DNA from: an uncultured Oscillospiraceae bacterium
GTDB lineage: Bacteria; Bacillota; Clostridia; Acetivibrionales; Acetivibrionaceae
Length of the DNA stretch: 18,052 nucleotides
Assembly (NCBI GenBank): GCA_964409165.1
Contig: CAYPCH010000079.1
Location: 1 to 18,052 of the forward strand
Direction: 5' to 3'
The notes beneath the pieces are model-generated. The model searched no databases. It was not told where the DNA came from and saw only the letters and a list, made by a program, of their open reading frames with translations. A program made the translations under genes and the position numbers. Below are positions 6,572 to 17,476 of the stretch, in pieces (within the stretch, counting starts at the first letter, position 1; the number at the start of each line of letters is the position of its first letter).

Positions 6572-6667
<96 letters not shown>

Positions 6668-6708
6668 TCATGTCCTAATTCTATCACAAACAATTTGAAA
6701 TCAAAACA

Positions 6709-6738
6709 CAAACCCAGTAAAGTAATTTGCTGGGTTTG
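6709..6738. promoter_or_regulatory. Palindrome CAAACCCAG-N12-CTGGGTTTG (candidate operator) between the truncated WYL fragment and the divergent RlaP promoter; paralogous copy at 14739-14768
   Basis: Perfect 9-bp inverted repeat. The 14739-14768 copy reads CAAAACCAG-N12-CTGGTTTTG, i.e. the C-to-A change in one arm is matched by a G-to-T change in the other arm. Confidence 0.5.
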
Positions 6739-6799
6739 CACTTTAAATTCCTCTAATACACTTATGTAATGTAAAACCTTTATTAAACTCAATATAATA

Positions 6800-6808: not shown

Positions 6809-6840
6809 TTAAAACAAAAGTTGTTTAGGAGAAATAAAAT

Positions 6841-7614
6841 ATGCGGGATATTATACTCAACAAGCTCAGTGCCATTGAAAAGGAAAATAACATCAAAATC
6901 CTCTATGCTGTTGAATCCGGTAGCAGAGGTTGGGGGTTTGCATCTCAAGACAGCGACTACGATGTACGGTTTATATACACTCATCCCACTGACTGGTACC
7001 TTTCCATTGAAGATAAAAAGGATTTTATTGAGGTTCCAATCAATGACTTGTTGGATATAAACGGTTGGGATATCAGAAAGGCTTTTCTACATTATAAAAA
7101 ATCAAATCCTACATTAATGGAATGGCTAAGTTCACCTATAGTGTATATAGAAAACTATAGTGCTGCACAGAGAATGAGAGAATTACTGCCTTTTTACTTC
7201 TCGCAGGTGCCTACAATCTATCACTATCTTCATATAGCAAGAAATAAGTTCGAAGAGGTTATTGCAACAAACCAAGTCAAAATCAAACATTATTTTTATA
7301 TTTTAAGACCCATCCTTGCATGTATGTGGATTGAAAAGAACAATGCGACTCCTCCAATGGAGTTTTGCAAGCTAATGGCTGAACAGCATTTGGATAGTGC
7401 TCTGCTTAATGAAATTAATAAGCTGCTTGAGAAAAAGACTTCTGGTTTGGAAATCGATATCGAACCAAAAAGCTCTATTATTATTGATTTTCTCAAAAAT
7501 AAGATAACTCAATTTGAGCAACATCTCAAGACAGTCAAGAAAGAAAAAACATCCGGTTATGAAGCCTTAAATCTTCTATTTCGTGAAACACTTAAGGAAA
7601 TCTGGGGCGATTAA
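6841..7614 (+). CDS. Polymerase-beta-fold nucleotidyltransferase, PF10127/RlaP-like (RNA-ligase-associated NTase family)
   Basis: Minimal NTase motif ESGSRGWGFASQDSDYDVRF (GS ... DxD), followed by a helical domain (NPTLMEWLSSPIVY). This family is known, from my recollection of the RNA-repair gene-neighbourhood literature, to co-occur with RtcB. Confidence 0.7.
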   Translation: MRDIILNKLSAIEKENNIKILYAVESGSRGWGFASQDSDYDVRFIYTHPTDWYLSIEDKKDFIEVPINDLLDINGWDIRKAFLHYKKSNPTLMEWLSSPIVYIENYSAAQRMRELLPFYFSQVPTIYHYLHIARNKFEEVIATNQVKIKHYFYILRPILACMWIEKNNATPPMEFCKLMAEQHLDSALLNEINKLLEKKTSGLEIDIEPKSSIIIDFLKNKITQFEQHLKTVKKEKTSGYEALNLLFRETLKEIWGD

Positions 7615-7652
7615 GAAAAATGATATATCCCAAAATTTAAAGGAGTTAGTGT

Positions 7653-8654
7653 ATGGGTATGCAGTACATAAAAGACAAGTTGAATTCGGGCAAATACGAG
7701 TTTCTAAGGACAGATCCGCACCTTGGAAGTAATATATTAATCCTTACTTTGGCCGGGTCTATTGCTTATGGAACCAATGTTGATACCAGTGATATTGATG
7801 TCAGGGGCGTTGCGTTAGAAACAAAACAGGATATTATGGGATTATCAAGCTTTGAGCAGTTCGAGGACAGAACCACAGATACAGTAATTTACGGACTCAA
7901 AAAGTTTATTACTCTGTGTCTTAACAGCAACCCAAATGTTCTGGAGATTCTAGGTACAAAACCTGAGCATCTTCTTATTATAACAAAAGAAGGTCAACTT
8001 TTAAGGGATAATGTTGATTTGTTCTTATCCAAAAAAGCAATTCAGAGTTTTGGAAATTATGCAACAGCCCAGCTTAGAAGACTGCAGAATGCTCTTGCAA
8101 GAGATAGTTACCCTCAAGCAGAAAAGGAGCATCATATCCTTAATAGTATATTAGGACAAATGGATCACTTAAAACGGACTTACAAACGCTTTACAGACAG
8201 CGAAATCAGCTTATACATTGATCAATCGGATAAAGAAGAAATGGACACAGAAATATTTATTGATATAAGCATGAAACATTATCCACTAAGAGATCTTAAA
8301 AATATCTATTCAGATATGAATAATATTGTAAAGGATTACTCCAAACTGAATCATCGGAACAGCAAAAAGGATGTTTTTCACCTCAACAAGCATGCCATGC
8401 ATCTGATTAGGCTCTTGGTTACAGGCACAGAAATTCTTGAGGGCAAAGGGATCAATACATACAGAGAAAAGGAACGTGAATTTTTTCTTGATATACGCAA
8501 AGGGAAGTACAGCTATAACGATGTATTTAAGATGGTTGACGAGTACGAGCGCAGGTTCAAATCCGCAGCTGAAAATACATCCCTTCCTGATGAACCGGAT
8601 TATAAACGTGTCGAAGAATTAATGATAGAGATTTATAGCAAAATATTATTATAG
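7653..8654 (+). CDS. Second, divergent polymerase-beta-fold nucleotidyltransferase (paralog of the upstream RlaP-like gene)
   Basis: LTLAGSIAYGTNVDTSDIDVRGV (GS ... DxD NTase core) and a similar downstream helical region (NSNPNVLEILGTKPEHL). 38-nt gap from the upstream gene with its own RBS AAGGAG. Confidence 0.65.
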   Translation: MGMQYIKDKLNSGKYEFLRTDPHLGSNILILTLAGSIAYGTNVDTSDIDVRGVALETKQDIMGLSSFEQFEDRTTDTVIYGLKKFITLCLNSNPNVLEILGTKPEHLLIITKEGQLLRDNVDLFLSKKAIQSFGNYATAQLRRLQNALARDSYPQAEKEHHILNSILGQMDHLKRTYKRFTDSEISLYIDQSDKEEMDTEIFIDISMKHYPLRDLKNIYSDMNNIVKDYSKLNHRNSKKDVFHLNKHAMHLIRLLVTGTEILEGKGINTYREKEREFFLDIRKGKYSYNDVFKMVDEYERRFKSAAENTSLPDEPDYKRVEELMIEIYSKILL

Positions 8655-8768
8655 TGTTATAGCGAGCGAAGTAGTGAACCAATTTTTTCTTAAAAACTAC
8701 TTCTGCAGAACTTCATCGATATGTCTTTGCTCTTTTTATTATTAACTCAACTTTCCCACTTATAGTAT

Positions 8769-8807
8769 TTTGAGGATCTGGTTGCTCATAAAAAAGCCTG
8801 CTACTTT
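8769..8807. terminator. Rho-independent terminator hairpin between convergent RlaP2 and rtcB (12-bp stem AGCCTGCTACTT/AAGTAGCAGGCT)
   Basis: Perfect 12-bp stem with 9-nt loop. On the minus strand it is followed by TTTTTTATG (terminates the rtcB transcript). An A-run precedes it on the plus strand, so it could be bidirectional. Confidence 0.6.
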
Positions 8808-8860
8808 GTATAATCAAGTAGCAGGCTAATATAATGGTATGCCTTTTATTTAGAAGCATT

Positions 8861-11876: not shown

Positions 11877-12208
11877 TTAAAACATGTCTATGTATTCAGA
11901 AACGCGAGATATTAATATTTCAATCAATTCCTCATCCATAAAAGAATAGTCATCTGATATATCCAGAATGATTACTTTTTTATCCTTGAGGATATCTCCA
12001 AATTTTTCTTGAATTCTTCTCAAGTGTTTTTTCTCCATTACAAAGATTATGTCTGCCCAGCCAATATGACCGCCTGTCACTTTAATTCTAGCATTACTTT
12101 CTGTTCCAGCTGATCTTACTTCGTGACCATTAGTACCATTAAAAATCTTCTCAGCCGTAAGACTTCTCCATTTATTTCTACTGCATAAAAATAGTACCTT
12201 TATGTTAA

Positions 12209-12212
<4 letters not shown>
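11877..12212 (-). CDS. Small LMW-PTP-fold phosphatase (COG4551-type predicted protein tyrosine phosphatase / ArsC-like P-loop)
   Basis: N-terminal P-loop VLFLCSRNKWRS (C-X5-R-S) as in low-molecular-weight PTPs and arsenate reductases. Only 111 aa. Stop codon overlaps the start region of the WYL gene (ATGA-type coupling at 12209-12212). Confidence 0.65.
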
Positions 12213-14791
<2,579 letters not shown>

Positions 14792-14794
14792 TAG

Positions 14795-15177
14795 CTATCC
14801 AACCTCTATGTATTTGGGATCTATAAAATCGGCAAGCCACACTTTTTCATTTCCTTTATAAAACGTAATTCCCTCATTCCAAGCATCCATAGAATTTATA
14901 ATAAGTAAAGCAGGATGGTCATCTCTCCTTTTACCAACTTGTAGAGCCATATCTGTGTCAACAGCCAAGTGAACATACTGCCTTCCTTTAGGAATCAATC
15001 CCTTTTCCTTAATCATTGATAAGAATCGCCTTGTTGTTCCATGAAATAAAACTTCAGGTGGCTGCAATGATTCCTTTATTATCCTCTGAGGAATTGAATG
15101 CCCGTACAAAGCTCTTATTCCCATGGTGCATGCCTCAATGCAAAAGACATAGCTTTACTTAATCTTGTATAATCCAT
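14795..15177 (-). pseudogene. kptA: Disrupted tpt1/kptA (RNA 2'-phosphotransferase): N-terminal 20 codons in one frame, C-terminal NAD-binding lobe (109 aa) in another, with about 50 codons missing between them
   Basis: C-terminal ORF has Tpt1 motifs (GIRALYGHS, LFHGTTRRF, QYVHLAV, VGKRRDDHPALLI, KVWLADFIDPKYI). Just upstream in the +1 frame: MDYTRLSKAMSFALRHAPWE-stop (Tpt1 N-terminal LSKxLSxxLRHxPE motif, RBS AGGAAGG). The roughly 55 residues that normally separate LRHxPE from IRAxQGHS are absent. Confidence 0.6.
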
Positions 15178-15327
15178 TTATCATCAACCTTCCTAAAAAA
15201 CATCATTTTTATCCATTATATTCGAGCAGCTTATCAATTAATTATATCCCCAATAACTGCTCCAAGTATAAAAATCACCTCGCAAGCATACCCAAATTTG
15301 CACGATTACCATACTTTCTAAATCCTT

Positions 15328-15477
15328 TTACACTCTCTGCGCTACCGCAACTCTCTCATCAATATTCCCTCTCAACTCAACATATGGAAGCTTACGTTCC
15401 TTCAGATCAGCAATAATCTGTTTCTGGAATATATGCCGCTTCTGGTCTCCCGAGCGATTCCATCCTTTAATCTTCAT
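15328..15477 (-). CDS. Small hypothetical ORF (49 aa, MKIKGWNRSGDQKRHIFQKQIIADLKERKLPYVELRGNIDERVAVAQRV), not in the supplied ORF list
   Basis: Strong RBS AAGGAGAG 8 nt upstream of the ATG. Located between the macro domain gene and the tpt1 remnant on the same strand. No recognisable family. Confidence 0.35.
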   Translation of the reverse strand: MKIKGWNRSGDQKRHIFQKQIIADLKERKLPYVELRGNIDERVAVAQRV

Positions 15478-15506
15478 TTCAACCGCTCTCCTTATTTCCT
15501 TAAGTT

Positions 15507-16010
15507 CTATGTAGCTTCAGTATATTCGCTATATGTATCCTCATCAAAGCAAACCATCAAAACTTTCTCAATGTTAGAATTCGTATCAAGAAACCCCTTT
15601 ATCTCATTAATTGCTATCACTGCTGCCCTTTCTACTGGAAATCTGTATGCTCCTGTACTTATTGATGGGAAAGCTATAGTTTTTATACCATACCTGGCCG
15701 CTAGTTCCAAAGAATTTCTATAACAATCAGCCAATAGTCCATCTTCTCCCCTGTTTCCTCCCTGCCACACAGGACCCACAGTATGGATGACCCACTTAGC
15801 GGGAAGTCTATATCCTTTAGTTATTTTTGCCTGTCCGGTTTTGCATCCATGTAGCTTCATGCATTCCATAACAAGTTTAGGTCCGGCTGCTCTATGAATA
15901 GCACCATCAACACCTCCCCCGCCAAGTAGTGAACTGTTTGCTGCGTTAACTATAGCATCAATAACTTGTTTTGTTATATCTCCCTTAATAACATCTAGTC
16001 TATTTATCAT
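15507..16010 (-). CDS. Macro domain protein (MacroD/YmdB-type ADP-ribose-1''-phosphatase / O-acetyl-ADP-ribose deacetylase)
   Basis: Canonical macro motifs: [28 protein letters not shown], and the downstream G-rich loop. Probable start at the second ATG (MINRLD, 16010), which is preceded by GGGAGG. Confidence 0.85.
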
Positions 16011-16264
16011 AATATCGCCTCCCAATATTTAACATCAGCAACCTTATCTCTAACATCTCTATTTCGTGAATTAATCATTTGTTTCAACTGCTTTTACATC
16101 TGCAGATAATGCGTAAGTATTGTTTCAGAGATTAAGTGAATATAGTTTTCCAAAGATATATTCTCTTTCAGTAATTATTTTCTTATCCTATTTTAGGTTG
16201 TATCTAATCTTCCTCTACTAAACCTTGCCTGTTTTTCAATATCTCTTTTACTTAAGCCCCTATC

Positions 16265-17476
16265 CTATTCTGTTTCATTATCCAAGACATCTTGCTCAAA
16301 AATCTTTGTATTAACAGCTTCTTGCTCCAATTTGCAATTATTCTCAAGCATATAGTCAATCACTTCACTAAAGTTGCTATCCCTTAGTCTTAGTAGCCTT
16401 TTACGATCATTTTCTGTAAGCTTTTTAGTATATTGGATATTCTCTTTTAGTGTGGCAGTATCCATTTTATAAGGTCGGAACTCCACCCCTGTTTGACCTT
16501 TCAAATGTTCAAATATATAAAACCCACCGGCATCTATGTCACCAAAATGATAAAAAGGCGTACCAGGATTTTGATGGTGTATTCTTTTGATAAATTCACG
16601 CCTAATATTATTATGATAACCGCCAAGATAAATTGCAAACATACCTTTATCACTAAAAGTATGAAAACTTGTTAAATTCTCGATAGTTATTACAGCCGTT
16701 CCTTTTACATCAATCGTTCCCACATCTGGTAATATAATAGAAGAAATTGCAATATCACCACCAAGTTTTGTCAAATCTATTATTTGGTCATTTAGTGTAA
16801 TACTGCCCGCACCCTTAAAATTTACGTATGTAGGATTTTTAATGATGTTTAAATTGCCTAGAACCTGATCTTTATCAGGAAAATCCCCATATTCGTATAA
16901 TAGGTTTATTACCTTGGAAGATAAAGCTTCAAATATCTTAGAATCTCTAAAAACTCTTACGGAAAAATCTCTGACAAAAATTTCAATTTCGACTTTCAAT
17001 AGCTCATCAACAGCTATCAAAATATTCTCCAGCTCTGACAAATCATTATTAAAGAATTGCACAGGTTTGTTTAATGCAATCCGTTCACATTGAGTTTCGC
17101 AATATTTCATTAAGATGGGATTTCTCAATTTATATTTTTCCATCAAATGAAGAATAGCCGAATTTGTATCCTTTTTAGGCGACCTTCCAACATAATTATA
17201 TACTTGTTCCAAGCTATTCAGATTTAAAACAATATCTTTATAAACTTTTGCCGAATTTGCTTGTGCAAATATGAATTGCTTTCTTATTAAGATGTCTATA
17301 GCCTCGTTTATCAAGTTAAACGCTTCATAGTTTGAATGATCAGCATACTGAGGAAACAAGGAAGAAACTTTGACCATGAACCTTTGATTTACCTTGTTAT
17401 CCCCTATAAAACTTTTGCTTCTTTCAAACTTGTCCAACAATTCATTAATTATCTGACTCTCAAATCTGCTCCTCAT
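16265..17476 (-). CDS. jetD: JetD/MksG-like protein (DUF3322 N-terminal + DUF2220 Toprim/TopoVI-A-like C-terminal domain) of a Wadjet-type SMC system
   Basis: C-terminal Toprim signature: acidic E in ITIENLTSF and DxD in HFGDIDAGGFYIF. About 400 aa. Start overlaps the stop of the upstream SMC-like ATPase (ATGA). Confidence 0.6.
   Translation of the reverse strand: MRSRFESQIINELLDKFERSKSFIGDNKVNQRFMVKVSSLFPQYADHSNYEAFNLINEAIDILIRKQFIFAQANSAKVYKDIVLNLNSLEQVYNYVGRSPKKDTNSAILHLMEKYKLRNPILMKYCETQCERIALNKPVQFFNNDLSELENILIAVDELLKVEIEIFVRDFSVRVFRDSKIFEALSSKVINLLYEYGDFPDKDQVLGNLNIIKNPTYVNFKGAGSITLNDQIIDLTKLGGDIAISSIILPDVGTIDVKGTAVITIENLTSFHTFSDKGMFAIYLGGYHNNIRREFIKRIHHQNPGTPFYHFGDIDAGGFYIFEHLKGQTGVEFRPYKMDTATLKENIQYTKKLTENDRKRLLRLRDSNFSEVIDYMLENNCKLEQEAVNTKIFEQDVLDNETE

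What the first reader, a model, noticed from the sequence alone, without database searches (positions are those of the whole stretch)
14795..15177. Tpt1/KptA RNA 2'-phosphotransferase is broken by an internal deletion plus frameshift; the NAD-binding lobe may still be expressed alone
The Tpt1 N-terminal motif (LSKAMSFALRHAPWE) is present with a good RBS but stops after 20 codons. The conserved C-terminal lobe (GIRALYGHS ... HGT ... VGKRRDDHP) restarts at an ATG in a different frame 7 codons before that stop. The roughly 55 residues that normally lie between these motifs, which include most of the RNA-binding lobe, are missing. The LRH-derived codons fortuitously create a GAGG 8 nt before the C-lobe ATG, so a standalone ADP-ribosyltransferase lobe is conceivable. 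Either this is a decaying gene in a defense island, or a split/trimmed Tpt1 with altered substrate use.
Basis: partly seen in the sequence, partly recalled or inferred. Interest (0 to 1): 0.6.

Follow-up and report, generated by a model that had tools for sequence, protein, structure and literature searches.

The report
Broken Tpt1 gene in decaying operon
This is the leftover of an RNA 2'-phosphotransferase (Tpt1/KptA) gene that lost 157 bases by slippage between two short repeats; it lies in an ADP-ribose-handling operon shredded by several other deletions, so it is an ordinary pseudogene.

Summary
On the minus strand, a 20-codon ORF (15177-15115) carries the Tpt1 N-terminus. A 109-codon ORF (15124-14795) in another frame carries the whole NAD+ lobe.

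Close relatives (85-95% identical) all have a 540-nt, 179-codon gene. Against them the window lacks exactly 157 nt (52 codons + 1 nt). The deletion lies between imperfect 11-nt direct repeats, GAATAtGAGCT and GAATAaGAGCT.

The same junction occurs in six contigs from at least five datasets, so it is not an assembly error.

[quoted passage not shown] The first two tetrad residues are stranded on the 20-residue peptide.

The ancestral operon was NrtR-NADAR-PARG-Macro-PnuC-NadR-ARH-Tpt1. Here it is cut down to an intact Macro gene plus fragments.

Three related lineages carry other, independent Tpt1 lesions. The short Tpt1 database entries I checked were calling artefacts, so I found no natural C-lobe-only family.

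Verdict: a recent pseudogene. A stand-alone NAD+ lobe remains conceivable but has no positive support.

The parts
15115..15177 (-). N-terminal remnant of Tpt1: 20 codons plus a TAA stop (MDYTRLSKAMSFALRHAPWE*). It carries Arg15-His16, the first two residues of the catalytic tetrad, and sits behind the ancestral ribosome-binding site AGGAAGG.
   Evidence: Identical to residues 1-20 of the L008 protein. Residue mapping to CthTpt1 Arg18/His19.
15110..15120 (-). Deletion junction, GAATAAGAGCT. It is the single surviving copy of two imperfect 11-nt direct repeats (GAATAtGAGCT and GAATAaGAGCT) that lie 157 nt apart in intact orthologues.
   Evidence: The two blastn segments overlap at 15109-15120. 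Alignment A1 shows a 157-column gap. Repeat sequences in seven relatives.
14795..15124 (-). 109-codon ORF: Met-Gly, then residues 73-179 of the ancestral protein. This is the last strand and linker of the RNA lobe plus the complete NAD+ lobe. It keeps Tyr77, the His-Gly-Thr motif, Arg118 (fourth tetrad residue) and the KRRD motif.
   Evidence: Pfam PF01885, profile positions 75-176 of 177, E = 2.3e-18. 85-93% amino-acid identity to 179-aa relatives. No substitution at columns that are at least 90% conserved. AlphaFold2 model: roughly residues 20-109 score pLDDT 87-97 in 10-residue blocks; residues 1-13 are mostly below 50.
14739..14768 (-). Terminator-like hairpin followed by a T-rich tail, 27 nt after the Tpt1 stop codon. 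It is the retained 3' end of the old operon.
   Evidence: It is the only terminator-like site in 14600-16400.
15278..15477 (-). Remnant made by another deletion. The first 7 codons of a PnuC-like gene (MKIKGWN) are fused to the last ~60 codons of a NadR-like gene. It includes the 49-aa ORF at 15328-15477.
   Evidence: blastn to L008 positions 7055-7095 and 8620-8811. L008 ORFs. tblastn of NadR residues 277-338. Junction sequences.
15507..16025 (-). Macro-domain gene, the only gene of the ancestral operon still intact. Its likely start is the ATG that gives 167 aa.
   Evidence: Pfam Macro, profile positions 1-118 of 118, E = 4.5e-47. 85.7% nucleotide identity to the L004 macro gene. Called as 167 aa in L024-L027.
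16080..16268 (-). Degenerate fragments of the NrtR (Nudix plus winged-helix) repressor gene: its 5' end and upstream DNA, joined to a piece that matches residues ~150-206.
   Evidence: blastn to L004, L008 and L010. tblastn of NrtR residues 150-206 at 47-62% identity.

Best explanation
The region is a non-functional remnant (pseudogene) of a 179-codon Tpt1/KptA RNA 2'-phosphotransferase gene.

A single 157-bp deletion occurred between two imperfect 11-bp direct repeats, GAATAtGAGCT at codons 20-23 and GAATAaGAGCT at codons 72-75. Replication slippage or illegitimate recombination is the likely cause. The deletion removed codons 21-72 and shifted the frame.

It left a 20-codon N-terminal ORF and, starting at an out-of-frame ATG inside the Pro18-Trp19 codons, a 109-codon ORF for the NAD+ lobe.

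The winged-helix RNA lobe and the third residue of the Arg-His-Arg-Arg tetrad are gone, and the first two tetrad residues sit on a separate peptide. Neither product can therefore carry out 2'-phosphate transfer.

The event is one of at least four deletions that reduced an NrtR-NADAR-PARG-Macro-PnuC-NadR-ARH-Tpt1 operon to one intact Macro gene plus fragments. This operon pairs an ADP-ribose 'writer' with 'erasers' and NAD-salvage genes.

Shown here: the deletion, its repeats, its presence in independent assemblies, the loss of catalytic residues, and the decay of the operon. Inferred: the loss of activity, the slippage mechanism, and that the ORF stays open only because the deletion is recent.
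For: **The deletion**
- The closest relatives are all about 179 aa and 85-93% identical; none is 109 aa.
- DNA alignment shows one 157-nt gap flanked by 11-nt imperfect direct repeats.

**Not an artefact**
- An identical 91-nt stretch across the junction occurs in six contigs (plus one duplicate retrieval of the NCBI contig). They come from JGI, NCBI, ENA and Logan assemblies of at least five datasets and are 99.6-100% identical to the window.

**Loss of catalytic parts**
- CthTpt1 (PDB 6E3A) aligns without gaps at an offset of +3.
- The essential tetrad Arg18/His19/Arg68/Arg121 and the lobe boundary at residues 85/86 (PMC6333775) map as follows: Arg15/His16 lie on the 20-aa peptide, Arg65 is deleted, and Arg118 is retained.

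**Decay of the operon**
- NrtR is reduced to fragments, PnuC-NadR is collapsed to a 49-codon fusion ORF, and ARH, NADAR and PARG are absent. Relatives keep different subsets of these genes.

**Independent Tpt1 lesions in relatives**
- W30 to TGA in L001-L003, E20 to TAA in L009, and a +1 frameshift at codons 18/19 in L031/L032.
- The literature describes Tpt1 as inessential in exemplary bacteria (PMC6333775 abstract).

**No natural short family found**
- The top 120 homologues are at least 149 aa long, except one on an 891-nt contig.
- Three short cluster representatives were checked. One was a miscalled start, one was cut by a contig end, and one had an in-frame stop upstream.
Against: - The 109-codon ORF is still open and has no substitution at strongly conserved columns.
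- It has an ATG right at the junction, a GAGG 8 nt upstream created by a lineage-specific synonymous change, and a 10-nt overlap with the upstream ORF that would allow termination-reinitiation.
- No terminator-like site separates it from the intact Macro gene.
- The NAD+ lobe is an independently folding module that binds NAD+ on its own surface (PMC8464070), and AlphaFold2 models it confidently.
- The selection test has no power. The window branch has 1 synonymous and 3 non-synonymous changes in the C lobe, and the population has no SNP in the region.
Confidence: 0.85

Rival explanations
1. The trimmed gene still works in a new way. The 109-aa NAD+ lobe is translated alone, by reinitiation after the 20-codon ORF or from the GAGG site. 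It then acts as an NAD+/ADP-ribose-binding protein or a weak NADase/ADP-ribosyltransferase, perhaps together with the adjacent Macro protein.
For: - The ORF is open and conserved columns are unchanged.
- There is an ATG at the junction, and a lineage-specific change turns AAGG into GAGG 8 nt upstream.
- No terminator separates it from Macro, and the terminator after the stop codon is retained.
- NAD+ contacts lie only in the C lobe and the lobes fold separately (PMC8464070).
- The AlphaFold2 model is confident for roughly residues 20-109.
- Four lineages have lesions that all fall in the N lobe and leave the C-lobe ORF open.
Against: - Three of the four essential tetrad residues are absent from the product.
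- The variant is found in a single near-clonal population, and its 90% cluster has only 2 members.
- With about 4 substitutions on this branch, an open 109-codon frame is what neutrality predicts.
- The neighbouring genes are shredded.
- No verified C-lobe-only family exists among the cases checked.
- A search with the C lobe as query favours finding lesions upstream of it.
Confidence: 0.08
2. The gene is dead, but its loss was selected rather than neutral. Once the repressor NrtR and the ADP-ribose 'erasers' were lost, an unregulated Tpt1 that caps 5'-phosphate RNA ends with ADP-ribose and consumes NAD+ became harmful. Knock-out lesions were then favoured.
For: - There are four independent lesions in a small clade.
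- In three of the four lineages (window, L009, L031) no intact NrtR gene lies next to Tpt1.
- Tpt1 enzymes can ADP-ribosylate 5'-phosphate ends, and PARG, macrodomain and ARH enzymes reverse this (PMC6182162 title and abstract; PMC11833690).
Against: - L001 has the W30* lesion although NrtR, NADAR, PARG and ARH are present. L011 keeps an intact Tpt1 without ARH or Macro.
- The sample is small and was found through C-lobe similarity.
- General operon decay explains the same data.
Confidence: 0.2
3. The break is an assembly or sequencing artefact, and the organism has a continuous 179-codon gene.
For: None found. The idea rests only on the general possibility of a collapse at repeats.
Against: - The junction is identical in six contigs assembled by different pipelines from at least five datasets.
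- The flanking repeats are only 11 nt long, too short to collapse an assembly.
Confidence: 0.01
4. It is a member of a naturally short Tpt1 family that has only the NAD+ lobe.
For: About a fifth of the 150 best cluster representatives are shorter than 150 aa, and one (P0173) is 109 aa and starts MIRALYGHS.
Against: - P0173 lies inside an intact 182-codon ORF with a GTG start.
- P0152 starts at a contig end.
- P0125 follows an in-frame stop, with the N-lobe sequence upstream in the same frame.
- The window's own N-terminal 20 codons and the 157-nt gap relative to 95%-identical DNA show that the short form is derived.
Confidence: 0.01

Closest known systems
Clostridium (Acetivibrio) thermocellum Tpt1, CthTpt1 (PDB 6E3A/6EDE), and the Tpt1/KptA family PF01885
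   Same: The intact orthologue in L008 aligns to CthTpt1 over 177 residues without gaps (E about 1e-76). The window keeps the complete NAD+ lobe, including the His-Gly-Thr motif, Arg118 (CthTpt1 Arg121) and the KRRD motif, plus the first 20 residues with the LSK and Arg-His motifs.
   Different: Residues 21-72 are deleted. These form most of the winged-helix RNA lobe and include the Lys63/Arg65 equivalents of CthTpt1 Lys66/Arg68. What remains is split between two reading frames.
Nudix (NrtR)- or WYL-regulated ADP-ribosylglycohydrolase-centred operons with Macro and NADAR, predicted to counter ADP-ribosylation (Iyer et al. 2022, PMC9503650, section 3.8)
   Same: Relatives of this locus encode NrtR, NADAR, PARG, Macro and ARH/ARG in one operon. 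Modules are gained and lost between close genomes, as that paper describes.
   Different: - That paper selected its systems for lacking a linked ADP-ribosyltransferase, whereas these operons end with Tpt1/KptA.
- Some of these operons also carry PnuC and NadR.
- In the window the defining ARG gene and the regulator are gone.
Ordinary bacterial pseudogenes formed by deletion between short direct repeats
   Same: An imperfect 11-bp direct repeat flanks the deleted segment, with one copy left. The result is a frameshift and a premature stop, and further deletions lie nearby.
   Different: Nothing substantive. The only unusual detail is that the junction happens to place an ATG in frame with the remaining lobe.

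Membership tests
Tpt1/KptA RNA 2'-phosphotransferase (PF01885) | Significant sequence similarity to the family profile | tested here: met
   The 109-aa ORF matches PF01885 with E = 2.3e-18, but only over profile positions 75-176 of 177. Relatives are 85-93% identical over this part.
Tpt1/KptA RNA 2'-phosphotransferase (PF01885) | Two-lobe architecture in one polypeptide: an N-terminal winged-helix RNA lobe (CthTpt1 residues 1-85) plus a C-terminal NAD+ lobe (residues 86-182) | tested here: not met
   Codons 21-72 are deleted and the rest is split over two frames. Lobe boundaries come from PMC6333775 and the gapless alignment to 6E3A.
Tpt1/KptA RNA 2'-phosphotransferase (PF01885) | [quoted passage not shown] | tested here: not met
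   Arg15-His16 occur only in the 20-aa peptide, the Arg65 equivalent is deleted, and only the Arg118 equivalent lies in the 109-aa ORF.
Tpt1/KptA RNA 2'-phosphotransferase (PF01885) | Conserved NAD+-lobe residues (His-Gly-Thr, RQYVHL, VGKRRD) | tested here: met
   Every column that is at least 90% conserved among 120 homologues is unchanged in the window.
Tpt1/KptA RNA 2'-phosphotransferase (PF01885) | NAD+-dependent removal of an RNA 2'-phosphate | not testable with these tools
   This needs an enzyme assay or complementation of yeast tpt1-delta.
Pseudogene (degraded copy of a functional gene) | Derived from an intact ancestral gene that is still present in close relatives | tested here: met
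   A 540-nt gene is present in L004, L005, L007, L008, L010 and L011, at 86-95% nucleotide identity on both sides of the gap.
Pseudogene (degraded copy of a functional gene) | A disrupted reading frame that is real rather than an artefact | tested here: met
   The 157-nt deletion gives a frameshift and a stop after codon 20. The junction is identical in six contigs from at least five datasets.
Pseudogene (degraded copy of a functional gene) | Relaxed selection after the lesion | tested here: inconclusive
   The window branch has 1 synonymous and 3 non-synonymous unique changes in the C lobe. Pairwise dN/dS is 0.26-0.37, against 0.22 for the nearest intact pair. There are no SNPs within the population. 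The number of changes is too small to decide.
Pseudogene (degraded copy of a functional gene) | No functional product is made | not testable with these tools
   This needs transcript, peptide and activity data.
NrtR-regulated ADP-ribose-processing operon (ARG-centred systems of PMC9503650) | An intact Nudix or WYL sensor-regulator and an ARG/ARH hydrolase at the core | tested here: not met
   In the window NrtR is reduced to fragments at 16080-16268 and no ARH match remains. Relatives have both genes.

The most novel reading that the evidence does not exclude
The N-lobe lesions are not random decay. In four related lineages the lesions all fall at codons 18-30, or start there, and spare the NAD+ lobe. 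In the window a lineage-specific synonymous change also strengthens a Shine-Dalgarno-like site before a junction-borne ATG. This could mean that a stand-alone NAD+ lobe is kept and expressed as an NAD+/ADP-ribose-binding or NAD-consuming partner of the adjacent Macro protein.
Probability: 0.07. Interest if true: 0.5.

Novelty: already known. Interest (0 to 1): 0.15.

Why it matters
As a pseudogene it matters little. It should be annotated as a disrupted Tpt1/KptA gene rather than as a 'putative RNA 2'-phosphotransferase', which is the name one source gives the 109-aa product.

The wider picture is mildly useful. In Acetivibrio-like clostridia an operon joins Tpt1, a 'writer' that consumes NAD+, to four kinds of ADP-ribose hydrolase, NAD-salvage genes and the ADP-ribose-sensing repressor NrtR. 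This operon is being dismantled differently in almost every genome examined, and Tpt1 was knocked out at least four separate times. That fits the view that bacterial Tpt1 is dispensable. It also gives a natural set of genotypes for asking what this enzyme does in bacteria.

Tried and rejected
**Assembly error.** Rejected. The junction is identical in six contigs from at least five datasets.

**Natural short Tpt1 family.** Rejected.
- The library of 50%-identity cluster representatives does contain many short entries.
- The three I traced to DNA were a miscalled start inside an intact 182-codon ORF (P0173), a contig-end truncation (P0152), and a gene with an in-frame TGA upstream (P0125).

**P0022 and P0054 as further lesions near codon 20.** Rejected. 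Both start 'MELDENGW', but their ORFs are open upstream. The normal start position carries ATA or ATT behind a strong ribosome-binding site, so these are unusual start codons or start-codon losses, not breaks.

**Selection tests.** No usable signal from pairwise dN/dS, branch-specific substitutions or population SNPs.

**Programmed frameshifting to fuse the two ORFs.** Considered and rejected from the sequence. There is no slippery heptamer at the overlap, and a fused product would still lack 52 residues.

**Other scans.**
- The Rfam scan of the window found nothing.
- The promoter scan gave no more sites than shuffled sequence.
- The window's own genome is not among the GTDB species representatives; the best match is 93% identical over the C lobe.

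Full report
**What is there**

On the minus strand, ORF 15177-15115 encodes MDYTRLSKAMSFALRHAPWE followed by TAA. ORF 15124-14795 encodes a 109-residue protein starting MGIRALYGHS. The two overlap by 10 nt and lie in different frames.

The long ORF matches Pfam PF01885 (Tpt1/KptA), but only over profile positions 75-176 of 177 (E = 2.3e-18). The short ORF is too small for a profile hit. It is identical to the first 20 residues of the intact protein in the closest genome.

- The ATG lies 7 nt, not 7 codons, before the stop.
- The gap is 52 codons plus one base.

**Mapping the lesion**

A search of the large protein collection with the 109-aa ORF returned 381 hits. The closest 16 are 79-89% identical, and 13 of those 16 are 179 aa long.

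I fetched DNA for several of these, and for five genomes found in the GTDB set. The genomes include a Bacillota MAG, Anaerobacterium chartisolvens DSM 27016, an Acetivibrio MAG and A. alkalicellulosi DSM 17461.

In blastn the window matches these genes in two blocks that overlap by about 11 nt. The blocks skip 157 nt of the relatives. The multiple alignment shows one clean 157-column gap.

In the relatives the left edge reads CCATGGGAATATGAGCT and the right edge reads AAAGAATAAGAGCT. The deletion therefore lies between imperfect 11-nt direct repeats, GAATAtGAGCT and GAATAaGAGCT, of which the window keeps one copy at 15110-15120. Because 157 = 3 x 52 + 1, this one event explains both the internal loss and the frameshift. 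Slippage between the repeats is my inference about mechanism.

**Is it real?**

An exact look-up found the 109-aa protein on six contigs: JGI 3300038805, an NCBI anaerobic-digester metagenome (LSQX01137679), ENA ERZ941572, and Logan assemblies of SRR8925752, SRR14585993 and SRR3166067.

A pattern scan for the junction in the metagenome collection found the NCBI contig again. All of these loci carry an identical 91-nt stretch across the junction and are 99.6-100% identical to the window. The break is therefore a fixed feature of one near-clonal population, not an assembly error.

The population has only three SNPs between 13000 and 18052, and none lies in the Tpt1 remnant.

**What was lost**

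The intact orthologue aligns to C. thermocellum Tpt1 (PDB 6E3A) without gaps, with residue n corresponding to CthTpt1 residue n+3.

The structure paper (PMC6333775) sets out the relevant features:
- The RNA lobe is residues 1-85 and the NAD+ lobe is residues 86-182.
- An Arg18-His19-Arg68-Arg121 tetrad is essential.
- Mutating the Runella equivalents of the first and third residues slows the chemical steps by hundreds of fold.

In the window these features map as follows:
- Arg15-His16 sit on the 20-residue peptide.
- The Lys63/Arg65 equivalents are deleted.
- Only Arg118 remains in the 109-aa product.

That product consists of two foreign residues, the last strand and linker of the RNA lobe, and the full NAD+ lobe. 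Loss of 2'-phosphotransferase activity is thus a strong inference from established structure-function work. It has not been measured.

**Context**

In relatives Tpt1 closes an operon of the form NrtR (Nudix plus winged helix), NADAR, PARG, Macro, ARH, Tpt1. A DUF7638/7639 gene often follows. The closest genome also has PnuC and NadR between Macro and ARH.

A tblastn comparison of all these proteins against eight loci shows that nearly every genome has its own pattern of losses.

| Locus | State of the operon |
|---|---|
| L004 | Complete except for a truncated DUF7638 gene |
| L005/L006 | Macro cut to 58 aa |
| L007 | Only stubs of NADAR and PARG |
| L008 | Stubs of NADAR and Macro |
| L010 | ARH truncated |
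| L011 | No Macro or ARH |
| L009 | Only a 30-residue ARH stub before Tpt1 |

The window is among the most reduced:
- NrtR fragments lie at 16080-16268.
- Macro is intact (15507-16025; Pfam E = 4.5e-47).
- A 49-codon ORF (15328-15477) fuses the first seven PnuC codons to the NadR C-terminus.
- There is no ARH.
- Then comes the broken Tpt1.
- A terminator-like hairpin follows at 14768-14739.

Outside the operon remnant, Wadjet genes lie upstream: JetD and the end of JetC in the window, and JetA-D in L024. Two WYL/WCX regulators, an LMWPc-like ORF, an SPFH protein, RtcB and two RlaP genes lie downstream.

So 'decaying gene in a variable island' is correct. The gene's own unit, however, is an ADP-ribose/NAD operon. 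It resembles the Nudix- or WYL-regulated hydrolase-centred systems predicted by Iyer et al. (PMC9503650), with the difference that a transferase, Tpt1, is attached. Published work shows that Tpt1/KptA enzymes can ADP-ribosylate 5'-phosphate ends and that PARG, macrodomain and ARH enzymes reverse this.

**Recurrent loss**

Three other lineages in the same clade carry independent lesions.

| Lineage | Lesion | Where seen |
|---|---|---|
| L001-L003 | TGG to TGA at Trp30 | At least five contigs |
| A. alkalicellulosi (L009) | GAA to TAA at Glu20 | One draft genome |
| L031/L032 | One-base insertion at codons 18/19 | Biogas-fermenter population, at least 24 contigs |

A more distant gene has a stop at the LSK lysine codon.

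Together with the window this makes four hits in the N lobe, each leaving the C-lobe ORF open. The pattern is suggestive. However, the loci were found by C-lobe similarity, the numbers are small, and the window's end points are set by its repeats. I record it as a weak oddity.

**Could the NAD+ lobe work alone?**

Points in favour:
- The ORF is open and differs from the family at no column that is at least 90% conserved.
- The junction supplies an ATG.
- The only window-specific change in the first 60 nt turns AAGG into GAGG 8 nt upstream of that ATG.
- The overlap with the short ORF would permit reinitiation.
- NAD+ binds only the C lobe and the lobes fold separately (PMC8464070).
- AlphaFold2 models roughly residues 20-109 with pLDDT of about 87-97, and leaves the first 13 residues mostly below 50.

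Points against:
- The branch leading to the window has only five unique substitutions, four of them in the C lobe (1 synonymous, 3 non-synonymous). An open frame is therefore expected even without selection.
- Pairwise dN/dS is only slightly raised.
- The product lacks three of the four catalytic residues.
- Its neighbours are wrecked.
- No verified C-lobe-only family exists among the short database entries I traced.

I put this reading at well under 10%.

**Verdict**

This is a recent, repeat-mediated deletion pseudogene of a well-known enzyme, inside an operon that is decaying differently across related genomes. It is ordinary in kind and of low interest. The recurrent, independent inactivation of Tpt1 in this clade is a modest side observation.

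Noticed in passing
window 15243-16268: The whole ancestral operon, NrtR-(NADAR-PARG)-Macro-PnuC-NadR-ARH-Tpt1, is reduced here to NrtR fragments, an intact Macro gene and a 49-codon PnuC-start/NadR-end fusion ORF. At least four deletions besides the Tpt1 one are implied.
   Followed up: yes
L001 9911-10450; L009 9785-10324; L031 5964-6495: There are independent Tpt1 lesions in relatives: Trp30 to TGA (L001-L003), Glu20 to TAA (A. alkalicellulosi), and a +1 insertion at codons 18/19 (a biogas-fermenter population). With the window's deletion, all four lie in or start at codons 18-30 and leave the C-lobe ORF open.
   Followed up: partly
L036 about 884-1438; L037 about 818-1360: Two more distant Tpt1 genes have ATA or ATT where relatives have the ATG start, behind a strong GGAGG-type ribosome-binding site. 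The frame is otherwise open. Gene callers started at Leu23 (TTG) instead. This could be use of a rare start codon or loss of the start codon.
   Followed up: partly
window 15134-15137 (minus strand, Leu14-Arg15 codons): A window-specific synonymous TTA-to-TTG change turns AAGG into GAGG 8 nt before the C-lobe ATG. All seven relatives compared have AAGG. This may be chance, or it may hint at selection for restart.
   Followed up: partly
window 6589-6755 and 14618-14785: This is a direct repeat of about 165 nt at roughly 88% identity. It holds the first ~19 codons of the WYL-regulator gene, its upstream region and the hairpin terminator. The copy at 6.6 kb looks like the stub of a second WYL gene next to the divergently oriented RlaP pair.
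   Followed up: partly
window 6813-8524: This 1.7-kb segment carries most of the two RlaP (RNA-repair nucleotidyltransferase) genes. It is absent from contigs L024-L026, which are otherwise 99.8% identical. It is an insertion/deletion polymorphism within the population.
   Followed up: partly
window 12974-13103: A perfect 42-nt tandem repeat (3.1 copies) lies inside ORF 12209-13384, a WCX-domain protein. In L025/L030 the alignment lacks one 42-nt unit, and gene calls give products of 382 and 368 aa there, against the 391-aa ORF listed here.
   Followed up: partly
window 11877-12212: A 111-aa ORF matches the low-molecular-weight phosphatase profile only over its first 41 of 144 positions. It may be another truncated or highly diverged gene in the WYL/RtcB cluster.
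   Followed up: no
L005 7522-7698, L006 6998-7174, L008 6944-7042: The Macro gene, which is intact in the window, is cut down to 58 aa or a 33-residue stub in other relatives. Different genomes keep different members of the operon.
   Followed up: partly
P0173/L033 504-1052; P0152/L035; P0125/L034: Short 'Tpt1' cluster representatives in the protein libraries are products of miscalled starts, contig ends or in-frame stops. They are not a real short family.
   Followed up: yes
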